DNA of 64,000 bases, taken from assembly GCA_028696075.1 (NCBI GenBank), contig JAQVHS010000001.1, forward strand, positions 194,408 to 258,407. The letters are read 5' to 3'. A model generated the notes under the pieces. It saw nothing but the letters and a program-made list of their open reading frames with translations. It did no database searches and had not been told where the DNA came from. Made by a program: the position numbers and the translations under genes. Of this stretch, positions 19,132 through 56,950 are shown in pieces; position 1 is the first letter of the stretch; each line of letters opens with the position of its first letter. This DNA is from Candidatus Gastranaerophilales bacterium (GTDB lineage Bacteria > Cyanobacteriota > Vampirovibrionia > Gastranaerophilales > JAILCC01).

Positions 19132-19989
19132 ATGAATATCAATCAGGAGTACAAAATTTTATCATTTTCAACATCTGAAACGAAAATGAAAAAAACTATG
19201 GGGAATTTAACGTTAGAAGCGGTTGAATCAGGCGAAATTTTTAACGCAAAGCTTTGGGAAGAAGATTTAAACAAATACGAAAAAAGATATTTCAAGGCCA
19301 ATAATATAGTATACGTTGAGGAAGGCACATATTCAGAACAGTACAAAAATCTGATAATAAAAAGAATGACCCTTGTAAAAGAAACGCTTGCAGGCTTGTC
19401 AAAAACGCAAGTTGATGAGCTTTTTACACATTTAACAGGGGTTATTGATTTAATAAAAAACGACGGTTATCGTTTAGCCTTGAAAGAACTTTATTTAGAA
19501 TATGAAGACCTTTTAAAAATCGCGCCCGCAGCCAAAAACAACCACCATAATTATGTAGGCGGTTTAATTGAACATATATCGGAGTGTGTCTGCATTGCAA
19601 AGGCTAATTTTGATTGTTTTATACGTCCTGTTGATGAAGATTTAATAATTACAGCCTGTTTAATGCACGATTTTGGGAAAATTTTTGAATACAAAATTGA
19701 TGTTGAATCAGGGTTTGTCGAAGTGGACGAAAGTTTTATCAAACGCTGGGTGAGCCATACGCAGTACGGTTTTGCGTGGGCTAATCAAAACGAATTTTAT
19801 GACCTTGCAAGAATTATAGCAGGACACCACGGACGCAAAGACTGGGGCGCCATTATTGACCTGGACGAAAAAAATCTTGAGCCTGAAATTTATTTAATGC
19901 ATCATATCGATGATATTTCAGCAAAATTCGGCGCTATTACAACAGCGGATATTGAAAATATTAAAGAAGTTGGGCAGCTGGGAAGCTGA
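19132..19989 (+). CDS. OB-fold plus HD-domain phosphohydrolase (YhaM-like 3'-5' exoribonuclease family)
   Basis: NHHNYVGGLIEHISECV and LMHDFGKI / GHHGRKDWGA HD-domain motifs, with an N-terminal OB-like region. The last 8 codons and the stop lie in an intergenic-type repeat. Confidence 0.6.
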   Translation: MNINQEYKILSFSTSETKMKKTMGNLTLEAVESGEIFNAKLWEEDLNKYEKRYFKANNIVYVEEGTYSEQYKNLIIKRMTLVKETLAGLSKTQVDELFTHLTGVIDLIKNDGYRLALKELYLEYEDLLKIAPAAKNNHHNYVGGLIEHISECVCIAKANFDCFIRPVDEDLIITACLMHDFGKIFEYKIDVESGFVEVDESFIKRWVSHTQYGFAWANQNEFYDLARIIAGHHGRKDWGAIIDLDEKNLEPEIYLMHHIDDISAKFGAITTADIENIKEVGQLGS

Positions 19990-20120
19990 GCAGCTGAGAG
20001 TTTAAGAGGTGAAGGGCTTAAGAGTTGTCATAGCAAAAAAAGCTGTCATACTGAACTTGGTTCAGTATCTATCCATACCTATTGGTAAGATGCTTATCTT
20101 GCTTCGCTTCTCGACATAAC
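19966..20120 (+). repeat. copy of the modular AGCTGRGA / ttaagaggtgaa / hairpin repeat family
   Basis: gaagttgggcagctgggaagctgagcagctgagagtttaagaggtgaagggcttaagagttgtcat...gtcatactgaacttggttcagtatc. Same word order as the loci at 15490, 42033, 52878, 53181 and 53428. Confidence 0.75.
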
Positions 20121-42032: not shown

Positions 42033-42089
42033 GGTTGAAGAGGTGAAGAGGTGAAAAGCTTAAGGAAGCTCGGCAGCTGGGAAGCTGAG
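42033..42089 (+). repeat. copy of the modular intergenic repeat family
   Basis: ggttgaagaggtgaagaggtgaaaagcttaaggaagctcggcagctgggaagctgag, starting 17 nt after the rseP stop. Confidence 0.7.
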
Positions 42090-42129
42090 TTTATGTAGGT
42101 TAGGTTTTAACCCAACTTACTTGGTAGCG

Positions 42130-52074: not shown

Positions 52075-52878
52075 ATGAAAATAGGCTTTATCGGAGCAGG
52101 AAAATTAGGAAGTTCAATAATAGAAGGATTGAAAAAATCATCGCTGCAAGCAGAAATTACCGCATACGACCCTCATTCGGTTTTTTTAGAAAATCTGGTT
52201 CAAACATACGGCTTAAAAACCGCCGCTGATAATGCCGATTTGGTGAATAGTTCAGATGTGGTTGTAATCGCTCTAAAACCTGCTATTGTTGGTGAAGCAG
52301 TGAAAGAATTAAAGAACTTGTTCAAAGACAAACTTGTAATATCCCTGGCCGCAGGGGTAAACACGTCAGATGTAGAAGAAATTGCGCCTGATATTTGTAT
52401 CGCAAGAGTTTTAACCAATACTCCAAGCGCTTTTGGCGTGGGGATGTCAACGATTTCTAAAGGCAGAAATTTAAGCGAAGCGCAGCTTGAACTTTGCAAA
52501 GATATTTTTACTCAAGTCGGCGAAGTCATAGTCATAGACGAAAAATTTATGGATATTTCAACCTCTTTGGCAGGCAGCGGTCCCGCTTTCTTTTATGCCG
52601 TGGCACAAGGGTTCGCTAAAGGTTGTGAAAAGCTTGGTATGAGTGAAAAAGATGCTATTTTACTTTCCGCACAAACAATGCTTGGCGCTGCCAAAATGAT
52701 TACCTCTTCAGGTCAAACACCGGAAGAATTAATCAAACGTGTCGCAACCCCCGGCGGCTGTACCATAGAGGGATTAAATTATTTAGCAAGCCAAAATCTT
52801 GAAAAGATTTTAATCGAGTGTATGGAAGTTACTGCCAAAAAAGCAGCTATCCTGGCACATATAGGGAAAGAGGGCTAG
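52075..52878 (+). CDS. proC: pyrroline-5-carboxylate reductase
   Basis: IGFIGAGKLGSSI NADP-binding fold. C-terminal VATPGGCTIEGL motif. Confidence 0.9.
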   Translation: MKIGFIGAGKLGSSIIEGLKKSSLQAEITAYDPHSVFLENLVQTYGLKTAADNADLVNSSDVVVIALKPAIVGEAVKELKNLFKDKLVISLAAGVNTSDVEEIAPDICIARVLTNTPSAFGVGMSTISKGRNLSEAQLELCKDIFTQVGEVIVIDEKFMDISTSLAGSGPAFFYAVAQGFAKGCEKLGMSEKDAILLSAQTMLGAAKMITSSGQTPEELIKRVATPGGCTIEGLNYLASQNLEKILIECMEVTAKKAAILAHIGKEG

Positions 52879-52926
52879 GAAGCTTGGCAGCTGAGAAGCT
52901 GAGATTGGGTTTAAGAGCTTAAAAAA

Positions 52927-53084
52927 GCAGGCTTTACGATATAGGATAGAACGCTATTCACTGTGTGAAATCAGAGTATTACTTTGCCTAACGACATTTT
53001 TAACCACTTAGGCTAAGTTATGCTCTGATTGAGTTTGAATAGCACCAGACTTTAGAAATAAACTTTAATAGTAGTAAAGCCTGC
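52927..53084. other. 158-nt nested-helix element (candidate structured RNA or hairpin-type MITE)
   Basis: Four nested complementary pairs. gcaggctttac 52927-37 pairs with gtaaagcctgc 53074-84. gctattca 52953-60 pairs with tgaatagc 53036-43. aatcagagtat 52969-79 pairs with atgctctgatt 53020-30 (one G-U). actttgcctaa 52981-91 pairs with ttaggctaagt 53008-18 (one mismatch). Confidence 0.5.
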
Positions 53085-53105
53085 GACAGAACCCAACTAA
53101 GCGTA

Positions 53106-53165
53106 TTTTTTCTTTTTCTTTGGTTCGTTTCTTTTTCTTTTTGTTCGCATAAAAAGAAAAAGAAA
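53106..53165 (+). other. triple-helix-competent module: mirror pyrimidine tracts plus complementary purine tract
   Basis: T6CT5CT3 (53106-53121), ggttcg, T3CT5CT5 (53128-53142), gttcgcat, A5GA5GA3 (53151-53165). Tract 2 is the exact complement of the purine tract. Tract 1 is the exact mirror of tract 2. Confidence 0.6.
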
Positions 53166-53180
53166 TGGACAATCAATATA

Positions 53181-53546
53181 GCAGCTGAGAAGCTGGGATT
53201 GAGCTTAAGGAAGCTTGGCAGCTAAGAAGCTGGGAAGAGGTGAAGTCTTCTTAATGTCATGCTGAATTTATTTCAGCATCTCATTATTGTACGTCGATAT
53301 AAACCAGGCTCAACCATGCGACCCTGAAACAAGTTCAGGGTGACAGCCTTATTGTCATACTGGGAGGCTGGGAGATTATTTTGCCGTCATTGCGAAAATG
53401 TGTAAGCATTTGAAGCAATCCATAGGAAAGAAGCTTGGCAGCTGAGAAGCTGGGAAGCTGTGATTGAGTTTAAGAGGTGAAAAGGAAGTTGGGCAGCTGA
53501 GAAGTTGGGAAGCTGAGAGGGTGAAGGGATGAAGAGCTTAAGAGTT
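53181..53546 (+). repeat. dense cluster of the modular intergenic repeat family plus hairpin modules
   Basis: AGCTGRGA-type words, ttaagaggtgaaaag and gtgaagagcttaag words. Hairpins gtcatgctgaatttatttcagcat (53256-53279), accctgaaacaagttcagggt (53321-53341) and gtcattgcgaaaatgtgtaagcatttgaagcaatc. Confidence 0.8.
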
Positions 53547-53572
53547 CATTGTAGCCTTCGGCAAGTCTTTTC

Positions 53573-53750
53573 AGGCTTCACACTCTGCTTGCGCATTTTT
53601 CCGCCTGTGCAATCATTGAAAGCGAAATTGCTGTCGCAATTTGTTTCAATGTAGATTGCTTCGCTCCGCAACGGCGGTGGTATTATGCTTGCTACAAAGC
53701 CTGCTCACCGCAGCCTTTTTGCAGCGCATCGGCTTCACACTCTGCTTGCG
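53573..53750 (+). repeat. 20-nt direct repeats (ggcttcacactctgcttgcg) 158 nt apart
   Basis: Identical 20-mers at 53573-53592 and 53731-53750, enclosing a hairpin-rich segment (gattgcttcgctccgcaacggcgg etc.). Confidence 0.8.
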
Positions 53751-53957
53751 GCGCATAAAAAAACCCAAGGGTTTGATTAATTCCGTGGGCTGGGTAATAA
53801 GGGGTATTTAGGGTTTAATTAAAATCTCTCTTAAAATCTCTCTATGTGATTTCTTAGCTCTCATACTTTATTAAAAACATTTCAGCATAAAAGATTGCCA
53901 TATTAAGTATATACTTTCTTAATACAACTTAACGATATGGGATGAACTCAAGCTATA

Positions 53958-55652
53958 TCAGGCTTCTTCCTTATCAAAAAACTTTAAAATTTTTGATAAC
54001 AGATTATTTTCATAAGGGTTTTGCACATGCGATTCGAGCTGTTTTATACGTGATTTGACATGCTCATCGTCGGTACAAAGGTTAGAATTCTCGTCATAAT
54101 ACTTATAATTCTCAAGCGCGGCGTCAAAATCCTTCATTTGATAAAGACAATCCGCATTGAGCAAATAAAATTCAAAATCCTTTGTCCCTTCATCAAGAAT
54201 ACTTTGCAATTTTAAATGCGCCAAATCGTATTCTTTTTGAGCAATATGAATTTTTGACGCTTCTTTCACCGCAAATTCCCTGTCAGGCTCATGCTCTGCC
54301 AGCCTTTCGTAAAAATCAAGCGCCTGATATTTTTCCTCTCCTTGTGCTTGAAGGTTAGCAAGTTTTTTTATGGCCTGATAATCCTTATCATCATAATGAA
54401 CCGCCCACGTAAATTCATCGATTGCGTCCTGAATTTCACCTTTTAGCTGATGATAAAGCCCGAAATTATAATGAGCTTTGCTGTTATCGCCTTTAAGTTC
54501 GTACATTTGAGCCAATTTACGGTAACCTAAAGGGCTGTTAGGCAATTTTTTAATAATACGCTCGCAGTATTTTTGCGCTTCGTCAAAATCCTCTTCAAGC
54601 GAGTAGAACCCTGCCAAAGCCGTTAAAACTTCATTATCATCGGGTTGAAGCTTTTCGGTTTCAAGCAAAACTCTTTTTGTCTCTTCTTTTTTGGATTGTT
54701 TAAGATAAGCTTTTGCCAAATTGACATTAAGGCTTACGTTGTTCGGTTCCGCCATATGCAGCTTTTCATAAAGCTGCTGCGCTTCAAACATATGCTCGGT
54801 TTCAAGCAGTAAATCAGCCAGTTCCGTCATTGCTTTTTTGTTATCGGGATAAATTTTCAAAGCACGTTTCAGAACCTCAATAGCGGCATCAATATTATTC
54901 AATTCAGTGTAGATTTCTGCAAGCTCCATAAACACATTAAAATTTTCTTCCGTCATACCGAGGATTGCAAGATATTCGTCCAATGCGTTATGAAATTTTT
55001 TCTTATCCTTATAGCATTTCGCAAGCCTGTATCTGACGGTTAAAACATCCTGCTCATCCTGCGCCAAAGACAAAGCCCTCTTGTACTCGCTCTCCATGTG
55101 GTTTAAAGACTTCTCAAGCTCAAAAATCCTTGCTCTTGTAAGGTGATACATAAGTTTATCCGTATGTTCATAAATTTCCGCAAGCTGCCTTAACGCCACG
55201 TCATTATCAGGAGTAATAGTAAGCAGTTTGTTATAATATTCCGCAGCTTCTTCCTTTTTGCCTAAAATCAAACAGGCATGCGCCAAAACCTCAATATTAT
55301 CCTGATTTTGAGGGTCAGCAGCATAGAGGTCTTTATAAACCGTATAAGCTAAATCATACCTGTCGGCATTTTCAAAAACCATAGCGACACGCTGCTGAAA
55401 TTCAGGCGCCATATCAGGGTTATAAACCCTTTCGTAGTAATCAGCGGCTTCCATAAAGTTGCCCTCTGATTCTAATATTTGTCCCATAATAAAACAGGCA
55501 TGGGGATGGTTCGGCTCAACGGTTATAAACTTCATCAGATAAATTTTTGCATTGTCCAAGTCATTATTGTTCAAATATTCAAAAACTTTTTCTACCCTGG
55601 CATCGTAGGTCTTAAGAGTGATTTCGCCTGCCGCTGAATTTGGTTCGTCCAT
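53958..55652 (-). CDS. TPR-repeat protein
   Basis: ATG 55652 with a GGGGGG RBS, 2 nt after the upstream stop; the track start is 55676. Repeated 34-residue A/Y/L-patterned helices throughout (…AIEVLKRALKIYPDNKKAMTELADLL…). Confidence 0.8.
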   Translation of the reverse strand: MDEPNSAAGEITLKTYDARVEKVFEYLNNNDLDNAKIYLMKFITVEPNHPHACFIMGQILESEGNFMEAADYYERVYNPDMAPEFQQRVAMVFENADRYDLAYTVYKDLYAADPQNQDNIEVLAHACLILGKKEEAAEYYNKLLTITPDNDVALRQLAEIYEHTDKLMYHLTRARIFELEKSLNHMESEYKRALSLAQDEQDVLTVRYRLAKCYKDKKKFHNALDEYLAILGMTEENFNVFMELAEIYTELNNIDAAIEVLKRALKIYPDNKKAMTELADLLLETEHMFEAQQLYEKLHMAEPNNVSLNVNLAKAYLKQSKKEETKRVLLETEKLQPDDNEVLTALAGFYSLEEDFDEAQKYCERIIKKLPNSPLGYRKLAQMYELKGDNSKAHYNFGLYHQLKGEIQDAIDEFTWAVHYDDKDYQAIKKLANLQAQGEEKYQALDFYERLAEHEPDREFAVKEASKIHIAQKEYDLAHLKLQSILDEGTKDFEFYLLNADCLYQMKDFDAALENYKYYDENSNLCTDDEHVKSRIKQLESHVQNPYENNLLSKILKFFDKEEA

Positions 55653-55654
55653 TT

Positions 55655-56950
55655 TTATACCCCCCTGCCGCAGCATTTTTTGTACTTTTTACCGCTGTTA
55701 CAAGGACAGGGGTCGTTGCGCCCAACCTTTTGTACAGGCATAATGCTGTCTTTTTCTTCAAAATTATTTAACAGATTTTTAAATGCCAAAGAAGAATACA
55801 GCGTTGTTGTCGATGAGAAAAATTCATTCTCAAGGTAGAATTTTTTATATGTTGCCATAATTTCGTCAAGGGATTTAAACTTAGTTTCCAAAATCTCATT
55901 CACCCGTGAAAGAAATTTTTCACCGTATTTTTCGTAAGCCAACTGAAGTGCAATAGGCGGAACCTTTACCTTTTGTACAAATTCTTCCATGCATTCTTTG
56001 TAGCCTTCAATTTTGGTGTAATCATCAGACTCAAAGATATTCATAAACACATCAAAGAACGGAACAACATTCAATCCCGAGCGCTCATCGGCTATCAAAG
56101 TAACTCCGTAAGGCTTTTTGTGTGAAGAAAATCCCTGTTTTGTCGTTTGGAATAAATCGTTTCCGCTTGAAAATTCAGTTACTTCAAAAAATTTGTCGGC
56201 GGCGGGTGTATCAATATACTTTTGAATTTTTTGGTCGGAGATTTTTCTGCTGCCGTCCATATACTCGTTGAAAATCTGAATTAATTCATCAATTTTTTTG
56301 TTTGAAGTTGTAGTAAATTGTGCTTTAAAAAAGTTGTTGAATTTGGCAGTAATATCTGAAGCCATAGCTTTAAGCTCTTGAAGTTTTTCAGGGTTATCAC
56401 GGTATATTAAAACCGGATTTTGGGCTTGTCTTGTAACCACCAGCTGAAAAGCTTTTTCGCGGTCTTTGTAGCTTATATGTTCCAAAATATGATACAAATG
56501 ATATTCATCTTCAAATTTTACCACTCTTGCTATTAAAAAACAGCCGACACTAACGCCTTTAAAGCGCACCATTTTATCGAGCGGCTTGGCAAAATACAGC
56601 TTTTCATTAATATAGTTAAAAAGCTCAAAACCGTCTTTTAAAATACGTCTAACTTGAAAAACGCCGTTAATGCTGTCTTTTAGGGACTTAATGATTGATT
56701 TTTCTTTTTCCGTAATGTGGGGCATACCCGCAAGCGCCAAATCAAATACAGATTTTTTATCTTTGCCTATTCTGCGCTCAAAAATATAGTTGATAGTTGC
56801 AGTCGAAAGAATTTTTTCGCTGCCTTCTTTTATCCCTGTCATTGAATAATAATCCTGCAAATCTTTTTTCAAATTAAGGTTTGAATTAATATACATATAA
56901 ATTTTGCTTATCACTTGTGATATTTGTTCATTTTTTTCCTGAACCAACAT
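55655..56950 (-). CDS. SEC-C motif-containing protein, otherwise uncharacterised
   Basis: ATG 56950 in a TAATG overlap with the upstream gene. C-terminal [23 protein letters not shown] zinc motif. The rest is unrecognised. Confidence 0.65.

What the first reader, a model, noticed from the sequence alone, without database searches (positions are those of the whole stretch)
52927..53084. 158-nt rod-like nested-helix element immediately upstream of the triplex module
Four nested complementary segments fold the whole interval into one long interrupted hairpin. The pairs are 11 bp (52927-37 with 53074-84), 8 bp (52953-60 with 53036-43), 11 bp with one G-U (52969-79 with 53020-30), and 10 bp with one mismatch (52981-91 with 53008-18). 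The apical loop is 16 nt. The one non-canonical position in the third helix is G-U on the + strand but A-C on the - strand, which weakly favours a + strand RNA. The element plus the triplex module (52927-53165) is bracketed on both sides by copies of the modular AGCTGRGA repeat (52878-52922 and 53181-53262). It therefore looks like cargo inserted into a repeat site. It could be a stable structured sRNA whose 3' end is capped by the triple helix. It could instead be a hairpin-type MITE with 11-bp terminal inverted repeats.
Basis: seen in the sequence. Interest (0 to 1): 0.55.

Follow-up and report, generated by a model that had tools for sequence, protein, structure and literature searches.

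The report
Orphan long hairpin downstream of proC
A 158-base stretch just after the proC gene of an uncultured gut cyanobacterial relative really does fold into an unusually stable long hairpin, but it has no relatives anywhere I could search, so it is most likely an ordinary transcript-end hairpin or a relic palindromic repeat, not a new RNA gene.

Summary
All four helices are at the stated coordinates. The segment folds far better than shuffles on both strands (z -6.3 on +, -5.4 on -). It has the third-lowest folding energy of 5108 same-size windows, at only 36% GC.

The interpretation could not be confirmed either way. I found no Rfam match and no second copy in the 64-kb window. There was no real match in 185,579 species genomes, JGI metagenomes, IMG/VR, plasmids or phages, and none at ORF level. 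Relatives sharing the RR-GGDEF/CheW/proC block have ilvD 17-22 nt after proC, so they lack the spacer and the element.

The + strand preference is not robust. It rests on one G-U pair. The 8-bp helix forms only in - strand RNA or ssDNA. On the - strand the closing stem is followed directly by U6. On the + strand an extra outer helix brings the stem end to 3 nt before a U-rich tract.

Best reading, at low confidence: unique resident spacer DNA, flanked by multicopy octamer arrays, that acts as a two-way transcript-boundary hairpin between convergent proC and a TPR gene. A low-copy MITE-like palindrome and a triplex-capped sRNA remain possible. Interest is low.

The parts
52879..52922 (+). Left octamer (AAGYTGRG) repeat array. 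It starts at the proC stop codon. Its last module, GATTGGGTTTAAG, supplies the 5' arm of the outer helix.
   Evidence: G52908 is A in the three other copies of this module.
52905..52912 (.). 5' arm of outer helix H0. It pairs with 53089-53096 (7 Watson-Crick pairs plus 1 G-U).
   Evidence: The MFE structure. Pair probabilities are 0.66-1.00 on + and 0.66-1.00 (0.00 for the T-G wobble) on - with flanks of 150 nt or more.
52921..52926 (-). A6 on the + strand, which reads UUUUUU on the - strand directly after the closing stem. This is a terminator-like tail for - strand transcription.
   Evidence: Sequence. T6 starts at 0.3% of positions, so adjacency has about a 2% chance. The - strand fold shows a closed rod followed by U6.
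52927..52937 (.). H1 5' arm, GCAGGCTTTAC. It pairs with 53074-53084 (11/11 bp).
   Evidence: I7. Probability is 0.97-1.00 on both strands.
52953..52960 (.). H2 5' arm, GCTATTCA. It pairs with 53036-53043 (8/8 bp). It forms in - strand RNA and ssDNA, not in + strand RNA.
   Evidence: I14. Probability is 0.01 on + and 0.95-1.00 on -. See also the ssDNA fold.
52969..52991 (.). H3+H4 5' arm. It pairs with 53008-53030: 20 Watson-Crick pairs, 1 G-U (T52977-G53022) and 2 T-T mismatches.
   Evidence: (I1).
52992..53007 (.). 16-nt apical loop, CGACATTTTTAACCAC.
53008..53030 (.). H3+H4 3' arm.
   Evidence: I1.
53036..53043 (.). H2 3' arm.
   Evidence: I14.
53074..53084 (.). H1 3' arm, GTAAAGCCTGC.
   Evidence: I7.
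53089..53096 (.). 3' arm of outer helix H0, GAACCCAA. In the global fold 2+3 further pairs extend the stem to 53102.
53106..53121 (+). U-rich tract U6CU5CU3, 3 nt after the extended stem on the + strand. It is a candidate terminator tail for proC.
   Evidence: Sequence. Structure.
53123..53170 (.). A/T-rich hairpin (U-rich arm, 8-nt loop, A-rich arm). With 53109-53121 it could in principle form 13 base triples.
   Evidence: I2, I3. (-24.1 kcal/mol, z -4.5). The triplex topology is my own inference.
53180..53246 (+). Right octamer repeat array, in the same orientation as the left one.
   Evidence: D1, D2, D6.

Best explanation
The hairpin is a single-copy, lineage-specific stretch of the spacer between the convergent genes proC (+) and a TPR gene (-). 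It works, if it works at all, as a transcript-boundary structure for both directions.

- strand: RNA polymerase coming from the right would transcribe the full rod (H4 to H1) and then UUUUUU immediately after the closing stem. That is the arrangement of an intrinsic terminator. It would stop antisense read-through into proC.

+ strand: proC has no terminator before the element, so read-through RNA would contain it. The outer helices bring the base of the stem to 3 nt before a U6CU5CU3 tract. That could terminate transcription. In any case the hairpin of about -50 kcal/mol would block 3'-to-5' exonucleases, as REP and ERIC elements do.

What is shown: the structure, its statistical exceptionality, the absence of an intervening + strand terminator, and the positions of the A/U runs. 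What is inferred: transcription, termination and stabilisation.

The octamer arrays on both sides are the multicopy sequence. They most likely invaded a resident spacer, rather than the hairpin being cargo dropped into them.
For: - Both flanking genes point into the 1080-nt spacer, so the element is in no 5' leader.
- No terminator-like site lies between the proC stop (52878) and the element.
- H1 has probability about 1.0 on both strands. The whole rod forms on the - strand.
- A6 at 52921-52926 abuts H1, which gives U6 on the - strand. Chance adjacency is about 2%.
- H0 plus 5 further pairs end at 53102, and the U-rich tract starts at 53106.
- Canonical hairpin-plus-U-run terminators are used in this genome, for example AAACCCAAGGGTTT with a U-run on the - strand at 53761-53774 after the TPR gene, and 15166-15189.
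- The element is unique, while the arrays recur at 4 loci in the window and in 24 JGI contigs.
- Relatives lack the spacer altogether, so it is a recent, lineage-specific junction.
Against: - A 136-nt structured interior is far larger than the 3-8 nt loop of a normal intrinsic terminator, and the consensus scan did not call it.
- The + strand U-tract is 3-9 nt from the stem end, and the outer helices are weak.
- The TPR gene already has its own terminator about 700 nt upstream on the - strand, so a backstop may see little traffic.
- The A6 run could be a chance variant of the array module TTAAGGAAGC.
- There are no expression data and no conservation data of any kind.
- A hairpin this long and this DNA-symmetric (39 of 40 pairs Watson-Crick) is also what a palindromic repeat element looks like.
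Confidence: 0.38

Rival explanations
1. It is a low-copy or decayed hairpin-type MITE, or a palindromic intergenic repeat in the style of ERIC, Correia or RUP. On this reading it is selfish or neutral DNA that landed in a spacer already packed with small repeats. Any RNA effect would be incidental.
For: - It has 11-bp perfect terminal inverted repeats, is 158 bp long and AT-rich, and has no coding capacity.
- The palindrome is almost strand-symmetric: 39 of 40 pairs are Watson-Crick, and both strands and ssDNA fold well.
- The spacer is a mosaic of at least four other short repeat families.
- It is absent from the syntenic site in relatives.
- One copy in 64 kb is compatible with a few tens of copies per genome.
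Against: - There is no second copy in the window by blastn, nhmmer or a covariance model.
- There is no target-site duplication. The flanks are AAAAAA and GACAGA.
- The exact-TIR scans found only three chance hits inside coding DNA of unrelated taxa in 185,579 species genomes, none in JGI metagenomes and none in IMG/VR.
- There is no blastn match in plasmids or phages and no ORF-level relative.
- No transposase, RAYT or integrase occurs among window ORFs of 150 aa or more.
- Complementarity extends beyond the supposed termini into the flanks (H0).
Confidence: 0.3
2. It is a stable + strand non-coding RNA or proC 3'-UTR-derived sRNA, consisting of the hairpin plus the adjacent U-rich/U-rich/A-rich module. 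The 3' end would be protected by an intramolecular U.A-U triple helix, a bacterial analogue of the MALAT1/PAN ENE.
For: - The + strand fold is 8 kcal/mol better than the - strand fold, and there is one G-U pair on +.
- It is co-oriented with proC and with all octamer arrays in the window.
- TTTCTTTTTCTTT occurs twice (53109, 53128) and its complement once (53153). Their order allows 13 triples (the topology is inferred).
Against: - There is no promoter-like site upstream on +.
- There is no 3'-end-forming signal and no tRNA-like structure after the A-tract.
- There is no homologue of either part anywhere.
- No ENE-type 3'-end triplex in bacteria turned up in the RNA-triplex review I searched by keyword (PMC13541005).
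- The first U-tract has a simpler reading as a terminator tail.
- The duplicated U-arm may just be a 19-nt tandem duplication giving two alternative hairpins.
Confidence: 0.07
3. It is a functionless relic. A local inverted duplication or rearrangement scar arose when the proC-ilvD adjacency seen in relatives was broken. It persists neutrally in a spacer under little selection.
For: - It lies at a synteny break exactly here.
- The sequence is an orphan, with no strand-specific signal stronger than about p=0.02.
- The other repeat-filled spacer in the window is also bracketed by a long-range inverted repeat, 15189/16016.
Against: - The matches are concentrated in perfect blocks (11/11, 8/8, 20/23). 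They are separated by unrelated segments of unequal length (15 vs 30 nt, 8 vs 5 nt). That does not look like uniform decay of a duplication.
- Its folding energy is extreme for its GC content.
Confidence: 0.2

Closest known systems
ERIC/IRU, Correia (CREE) and RUP elements: small palindromic intergenic repeats or MITEs of bacteria (from my own knowledge of these families)
   Same: Size of 100-160 bp, terminal inverted repeats and a long imperfect hairpin. Non-coding, and located in transcribed intergenic DNA 3' of genes. Such elements can terminate or stabilise transcripts.
   Different: Only one copy was found in everything I could search. There is no target-site duplication (Correia elements have TA), no sequence similarity, and no partner transposase in the window.
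Bidirectional intrinsic terminators and REP-type 3' mRNA stabilisers
   Same: It lies between convergent genes. The stem is stable, with an A-run on one side and a U-rich run on the other. It would block 3' exonucleases on physical grounds.
   Different: The hairpin interior is 136 nt instead of a 3-8 nt loop. The + strand U-tract is offset by 3-9 nt. It is not repeated like REP. The consensus terminator scan did not detect it.
MALAT1/PAN ENE triple-helix 3'-end protection (eukaryotic and viral)
   Same: The adjacent module has the order U-rich, U-rich, A-rich. Its register allows 11 U.A-U and 2 C+.G-C triples.
   Different: It has no U-rich internal loop flanked by stems, no defined 3' end and no conservation, and it sits in a bacterial context. 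The hairpin itself has no counterpart in ENEs.
6S RNA
   Same: A rod of about 160-190 nt with a closing stem, a large internal loop and an apical stem-loop.
   Different: There is no match to Rfam 6S models even at E<=10 on a 1.3-kb search. The closing stem is only 11 bp. The internal loop (15/30 nt) sits next to the closing stem rather than centrally.

Membership tests
MITE / palindromic intergenic repeat (ERIC, Correia, RUP type) | Terminal inverted repeats, small size and no coding capacity | tested here: met
   11/11-bp TIRs and a 158-bp length. Only spurious short ORFs are present.
MITE / palindromic intergenic repeat (ERIC, Correia, RUP type) | Multiple dispersed copies in the genome | tested here: inconclusive
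   There is no second copy in the 64-kb window. The exact-TIR scans of public collections gave no real hit. The rest of the source MAG could not be read. Logan contigs stop at 52939 and 53772.
MITE / palindromic intergenic repeat (ERIC, Correia, RUP type) | Target-site duplication flanking the TIRs | tested here: not met
   The left flank is ...CTTAAAAAA and the right flank is GACAGAACC... There is no direct repeat.
MITE / palindromic intergenic repeat (ERIC, Correia, RUP type) | TIRs match those of an autonomous IS in the same genome | not testable with these tools
   No transposase occurs among window ORFs of 150 aa or more. The rest of the genome is unavailable.
Intrinsic (Rho-independent) terminator | Stable stem immediately followed by a U-run | tested here: met
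   On the - strand, GUAAAGCCUGC is followed directly by UUUUUU. On the + strand the stem ends at 53102 and the U-rich tract starts at 53106.
Intrinsic (Rho-independent) terminator | Compact hairpin with a short loop (3-8 nt) | tested here: not met
   136 nt lie between the H1 arms. The consensus scan does not report it.
Intrinsic (Rho-independent) terminator | Transcripts end there | not testable with these tools
   No expression data are available.
Any curated RNA family (Rfam 15), including 6S RNA, Y RNA and riboswitches | Covariance-model match | tested here: not met
   Nothing reaches the gathering threshold in this region. At E<=10, only sub-threshold microRNA-precursor models match inside 52927-53084.
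Conserved structured ncRNA (generic) | Homologues with compensatory base changes | not testable with these tools
   No homologue was found. The nearest ProC relatives are 51% identical and lack the spacer. Covariance model R1 finds nothing in 243 kb of related loci.
ENE-like triple-helix 3'-end cap | Two U-rich strands and one A-rich strand in an order and register able to form U.A-U triples | tested here: met
   TTTCTTTTTCTTT at 53109 and 53128, and AAAGAAAAAGAAA at 53153. The parallel third-strand topology was checked by reasoning only.
ENE-like triple-helix 3'-end cap | A-tract at, or processed to, the RNA 3' end; triplex actually forms | not testable with these tools
   No terminator or tRNA-like processing signal follows 53165. 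No structure probing is available.
Retron msr/msd, bridge RNA or omega RNA | Adjacent reverse transcriptase, IS110 recombinase, or TnpB/IscB gene | tested here: not met
   The neighbours are RR-GGDEF, CheW, ProC, a TPR protein and a SEC-C protein. No such gene occurs among window ORFs of 150 aa or more.

The most novel reading that the evidence does not exclude
The hairpin and the adjacent U-rich/U-rich/A-rich module together make one stable + strand RNA. Its 3' end would be sealed by an intramolecular U.A-U/C+.G-C triple helix. That would be a bacterial counterpart of the MALAT1/PAN ENE 3'-end protection mechanism, a type I found no bacterial example of in my limited literature check.
Probability: 0.05. 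Interest if true: 0.8.

Novelty: new member of a known kind. Interest (0 to 1): 0.2.

Why it matters
As it stands it matters little. It is one orphan hairpin in one metagenome-assembled genome, with no conservation or expression evidence.

It is a useful caution. An exceptional folding score and neat nested helices do not distinguish an RNA gene from a palindromic DNA relic or a terminator.

It would matter in two cases:
- End-mapping shows a discrete RNA capped by the neighbouring triplex-capable module. That would be a new bacterial RNA-stabilisation mechanism.
- The element turns out to be one of a family that targets the octamer arrays.

The octamer arrays themselves recur in 24 JGI metagenome contigs, where they form inverted-pair hairpins of about 95 nt with mostly purine-purine or pyrimidine-pyrimidine variation. 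They may be the more rewarding object.

Tried and rejected
- Rfam at gathering threshold, and at E<=10 on 1.3 kb: only sub-threshold microRNA-precursor models, mostly on the A/T hairpin.
- Second copy in the window by repeat finder, pattern search, blastn with word size 7, nhmmer --max and single-sequence covariance model R1: only self and self-reverse-complement.
- Exact-TIR scan of genome contigs: three hits, in Chitinophagales, Cytophagales and Cognaticolwellia. All lie inside unrelated DNA that reads like coding sequence, about the number expected by chance, so I rejected them. The source genome itself gave no hit, so it is either absent from that collection or masked there.
- TIR scan of metagenome contigs and viral contigs, and a triplex-pattern scan of viral contigs: nothing.
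- blastn (distant mode) against plasmids and phages: nothing.
- Synteny: three look-ups of 49-50% identical ProC relatives gave five loci with proC-ilvD adjacency and no spacer.
- Octamer-array scan of JGI metagenomes, to reach genomes carrying the same repeats: 24 loci, none with the element or the triplex module. One weak T-rich similarity in L034 lies inside an apparent IS30-like element (read by eye, not Pfam-scanned) and I dismissed it as low complexity.
- ORF-level search with the 67-aa open frame across the element: no candidates.
- Exact-protein look-ups to recover other assemblies of the spacer. My first two look-ups used wrong minus-strand coordinates and were repeated. Only the TPR gene from its second ATG was on record. 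Its Logan contig stops at 53772.
- Reading the Logan contig break at 52939 as evidence of a repeat: rejected as uninformative. The same contigs also break inside coding genes.
- AACCCAAC as a recurrent array-associated motif: 3 hits against 2.2 expected, not significant.
- 6S RNA, retron, riboswitch, attC and tRNA-like readings: rejected on the absence of a model match, the absence of a partner gene, the convergent-gene context, or the sequence.

Full report
**Context.** The window is a chromosomal stretch of about 38% GC carrying housekeeping genes, including DNA polymerase III alpha, topoisomerase I, CTP synthase and ribosomal protein L9. Its ProC protein is identical to one from an NCBI metagenome-assembled genome named Candidatus Gastranaerophilales bacterium. 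This group is a non-photosynthetic relative of cyanobacteria. The next-closest ProC in 5.8 billion proteins is only 51% identical. The finding lies in a 1080-nt spacer between proC (52075-52878, +) and a convergent TPR-repeat gene (53958-55676, -).

- 52927-37 with 53074-84, 11/11 bp.
- 52953-60 with 53036-43, 8/8 bp.
- 52969-91 with 53008-30. Read base by base, this pair has 20 Watson-Crick pairs, one T52977-G53022 wobble and two T-T mismatches.
- A 16-nt loop at 52992-53007.

Thirty-nine of the 40 rod pairs are Watson-Crick. The segment folds far better than dinucleotide shuffles:
- + RNA: -54.6 kcal/mol, z -6.3.
- - RNA: -46.3 kcal/mol, z -5.4.
- ssDNA: -24.8 kcal/mol, z -5.0.

In my scan of every 158-nt window on both strands, it has the third-lowest energy of 5108. 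Its GC is 36%, against 51-58% for the two windows above it.

**Two refinements to the anatomy.**
1. In + strand RNA the 8-bp helix has probability about 0.01, because two local hairpins win. The unbranched rod is what - strand RNA (0.99) and ssDNA adopt.
2. Pairing continues outside the 11-bp arms. Helix H0, 52905-52912 with 53089-53096, has 7 Watson-Crick pairs plus one G-U and probability 0.9-1.0 in context. Its 5' arm is the last module of the left repeat array. In this copy the module reads GATTGGGTTTAAG. The three other copies in the window have A at the position of G52908.

**Caveat on the assembly.** The independent Logan assembly of run SRR22315504 covers the flanks only up to 52939 and from 53772. 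The interior of the element rests on the window alone.

**Does it have relatives?** I found none by any of these searches:
- Rfam gives nothing at gathering threshold. At E<=10, only sub-threshold microRNA-precursor models match, mostly on the neighbouring A/T hairpin.
- The window has no second copy by repeat finder, pattern search, blastn with 7-mers, nhmmer or a covariance model built from the rod.
- A scan for both terminal arms at 120-150 nt spacing over 185,579 species genomes gave three hits in DNA that reads like coding sequence from unrelated taxa. That is about what chance predicts.
- A slightly longer version of the pattern gave nothing in JGI metagenomes. The original pattern gave nothing in IMG/VR.
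- Plasmid and phage collections gave no blastn match.
- A protein-level search with the open frame across the element found no candidate.
- Relatives with 49-50% identical ProC keep the upstream gene order (response-regulator/GGDEF, CheW, proC). In them ilvD starts 17-22 nt after proC, so the spacer and everything in it is specific to this lineage.

**What surrounds it?** The spacer is a mosaic of short repeats:
- Octamer arrays (unit AAGYTGRG) at 52879-52922, 53180-53246 and 53427-53535.
- A GTCATGCTGAA...TTCAGCATC hairpin module at about 53256, also present three times at 15561-15824.
- Further hairpins and a 20-nt direct repeat towards the TPR gene.

All five strict octamer-pattern hits in the window are on the + strand. 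Most array sites lie just 3' of a + strand gene.

The same pattern retrieved 24 JGI metagenome contigs. There the arrays occur mostly as inverted pairs: about four units, then roughly 25 nt, then about four inverted units. These form hairpins of about 95 nt. None of those contigs contains the 158-nt element.

The arrays are multicopy and the hairpin is unique. The simpler history is that arrays spread into a resident spacer, not that the hairpin is cargo dropped into an array. There is no target-site duplication either way.

Two facts point the other way:
- The complete rod forms only on the - strand.
- The run A6 at 52921-52926 abuts the closing stem. On the - strand the hairpin is therefore followed at once by UUUUUU. 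T6 begins at 0.3% of positions, so this adjacency has roughly a 2% chance on either strand with a little slack.

On the + strand, H0 and five further pairs carry the stem to 53102. A U6CU5CU3 tract begins at 53106.

This genome does use ordinary hairpin-plus-U-run terminators. One, AAACCCAAGGGTTT at 53761-53774 with a U-run on the - strand, follows the TPR gene. Another lies at 15166-15189. No such site lies between the proC stop codon and the element.

**Most likely mechanism.** I read the element as a transcript-boundary hairpin between two convergent transcription units.
- On the - strand it would act like an intrinsic terminator and protect proC from antisense read-through.
- On the + strand it would sit in the proC 3' untranslated region. 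It could terminate at the U-rich tract. At the least it would block 3' exonucleases as REP and ERIC elements do. That comparison comes from established knowledge, not from a test here.

The structure, its position and the flanking runs are shown. Transcription, termination and stabilisation are inferred. The 136-nt interior is very unlike a normal terminator loop. My confidence is only about 0.4.

**Rivals.**
- A low-copy or old MITE-like palindrome fits the size, the terminal repeats, the near-perfect strand symmetry and the repeat-rich setting. It lacks copies, a target-site duplication and a partner transposase in everything I could search. The rest of the source genome was not readable, so it stays at about 0.3.
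- A functionless rearrangement relic at the proC/ilvD synteny break is about 0.2.
- The + strand sRNA capped by a triple helix is possible on sequence grounds. TTTCTTTTTCTTT occurs twice and its complement once, in an order that allows 13 triples. It has no promoter, no 3'-end signal and no tRNA-like processing site. It has no homologue, and I found no bacterial precedent in the triplex review I searched by keyword (PMC13541005). I put it at about 0.07.

**Verdict.** The feature is real and statistically exceptional. It is also an orphan, single-copy in all the data I could search, and explainable by ordinary biology. Interest is low unless end-mapping or a copy count in the full genome says otherwise.

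Noticed in passing
window 15497-15537, 15928-15973, 19955-20008, 42036-42099, 52868-52922, 53180-53246, 53427-53535; loci L011-L034: Octamer arrays (unit AAGYTGRG). All five strict-pattern hits in the window are on the + strand, and most array sites lie just 3' of a + strand gene. The same pattern occurs in 24 JGI metagenome contigs (GC 37-53%). There the arrays mostly form inverted pairs: about 4 units, then roughly 25 nt, then about 4 inverted units. These make hairpins of about 95 nt whose unit variation is mostly R/R or Y/Y, that is, G-U tolerant. This looks like a widespread, unnamed hairpin repeat family.
   Followed up: partly
window 53106-53170: A triplex-capable module. TTTCTTTTTCTTT appears at 53109 and 53128, and AAAGAAAAAGAAA at 53153. 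The pyrimidine unit is mirror-symmetric, so the upstream copy could pair either as an alternative hairpin arm or as a parallel Hoogsteen third strand (13 triples). There is no other copy in the window, IMG/VR, plasmids or phages.
   Followed up: partly
window 15189-15202 and 16016-16029: A perfect 14-nt inverted repeat, TTGCGGATTTGCGG / CCGCAAATCCGCAA, with arms 813 nt apart. It brackets an entire repeat-filled spacer. My rough estimate of the chance expectation is about 0.002 per kb-sized region. The spacer also holds an exact 36-nt direct repeat at 15318/15453. There is no Rfam match at E<=0.1.
   Followed up: partly
window 15521-15931 and 53234-53360: A tandem repeat of about 127 nt, present three times. 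Each unit carries two small hairpins (GTCATGCTGAAC...TTCAGCATC and CCCTTTGTCAAATAAATTCAGGG). A partial related copy lies in the proC-TPR spacer.
   Followed up: no
window 53574-53593 and 53731-53750: A 20-nt exact direct repeat, GGCTTCACACTCTGCTTGCG, flanks a 137-nt GC-rich segment. Windows spanning it have some of the lowest folding energies in the scan on both strands (-55.4 and -52.6 kcal/mol). It may be another inserted element with a duplication at its ends.
   Followed up: no
window 12590-12650 vs 12843-12904, next to tRNA-His 12886-12961 (-): Sequence overlapping the 3' part of the tRNA-His gene and its downstream flank is duplicated 253-254 nt away at 90-96% identity. No second tRNA is detected there. 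This may be a scar of an integration or excision at the tRNA.
   Followed up: partly
window 52878-53958 vs L005, L006, L008-L010: A synteny break. In five loci from relatives, the block RR-GGDEF / CheW / proC is followed within 17-22 nt by ilvD. In the window, proC is followed by a 1080-nt repeat-filled spacer and a convergent TPR gene.
   Followed up: yes
L034 1-1300: An apparent IS30-like transposase gene (identified by eye from the sequence, not Pfam-scanned), with apparent terminal repeats (CAAGTT...GCAAC / GTTGC...AACTTG). It sits directly next to an octamer-array hairpin in a JGI contig. Its 5' leader contains a T-rich direct repeat (TTTTTCTTTTTGG twice). This superficially resembles the triplex module and is probably a low-complexity coincidence.
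   Followed up: no
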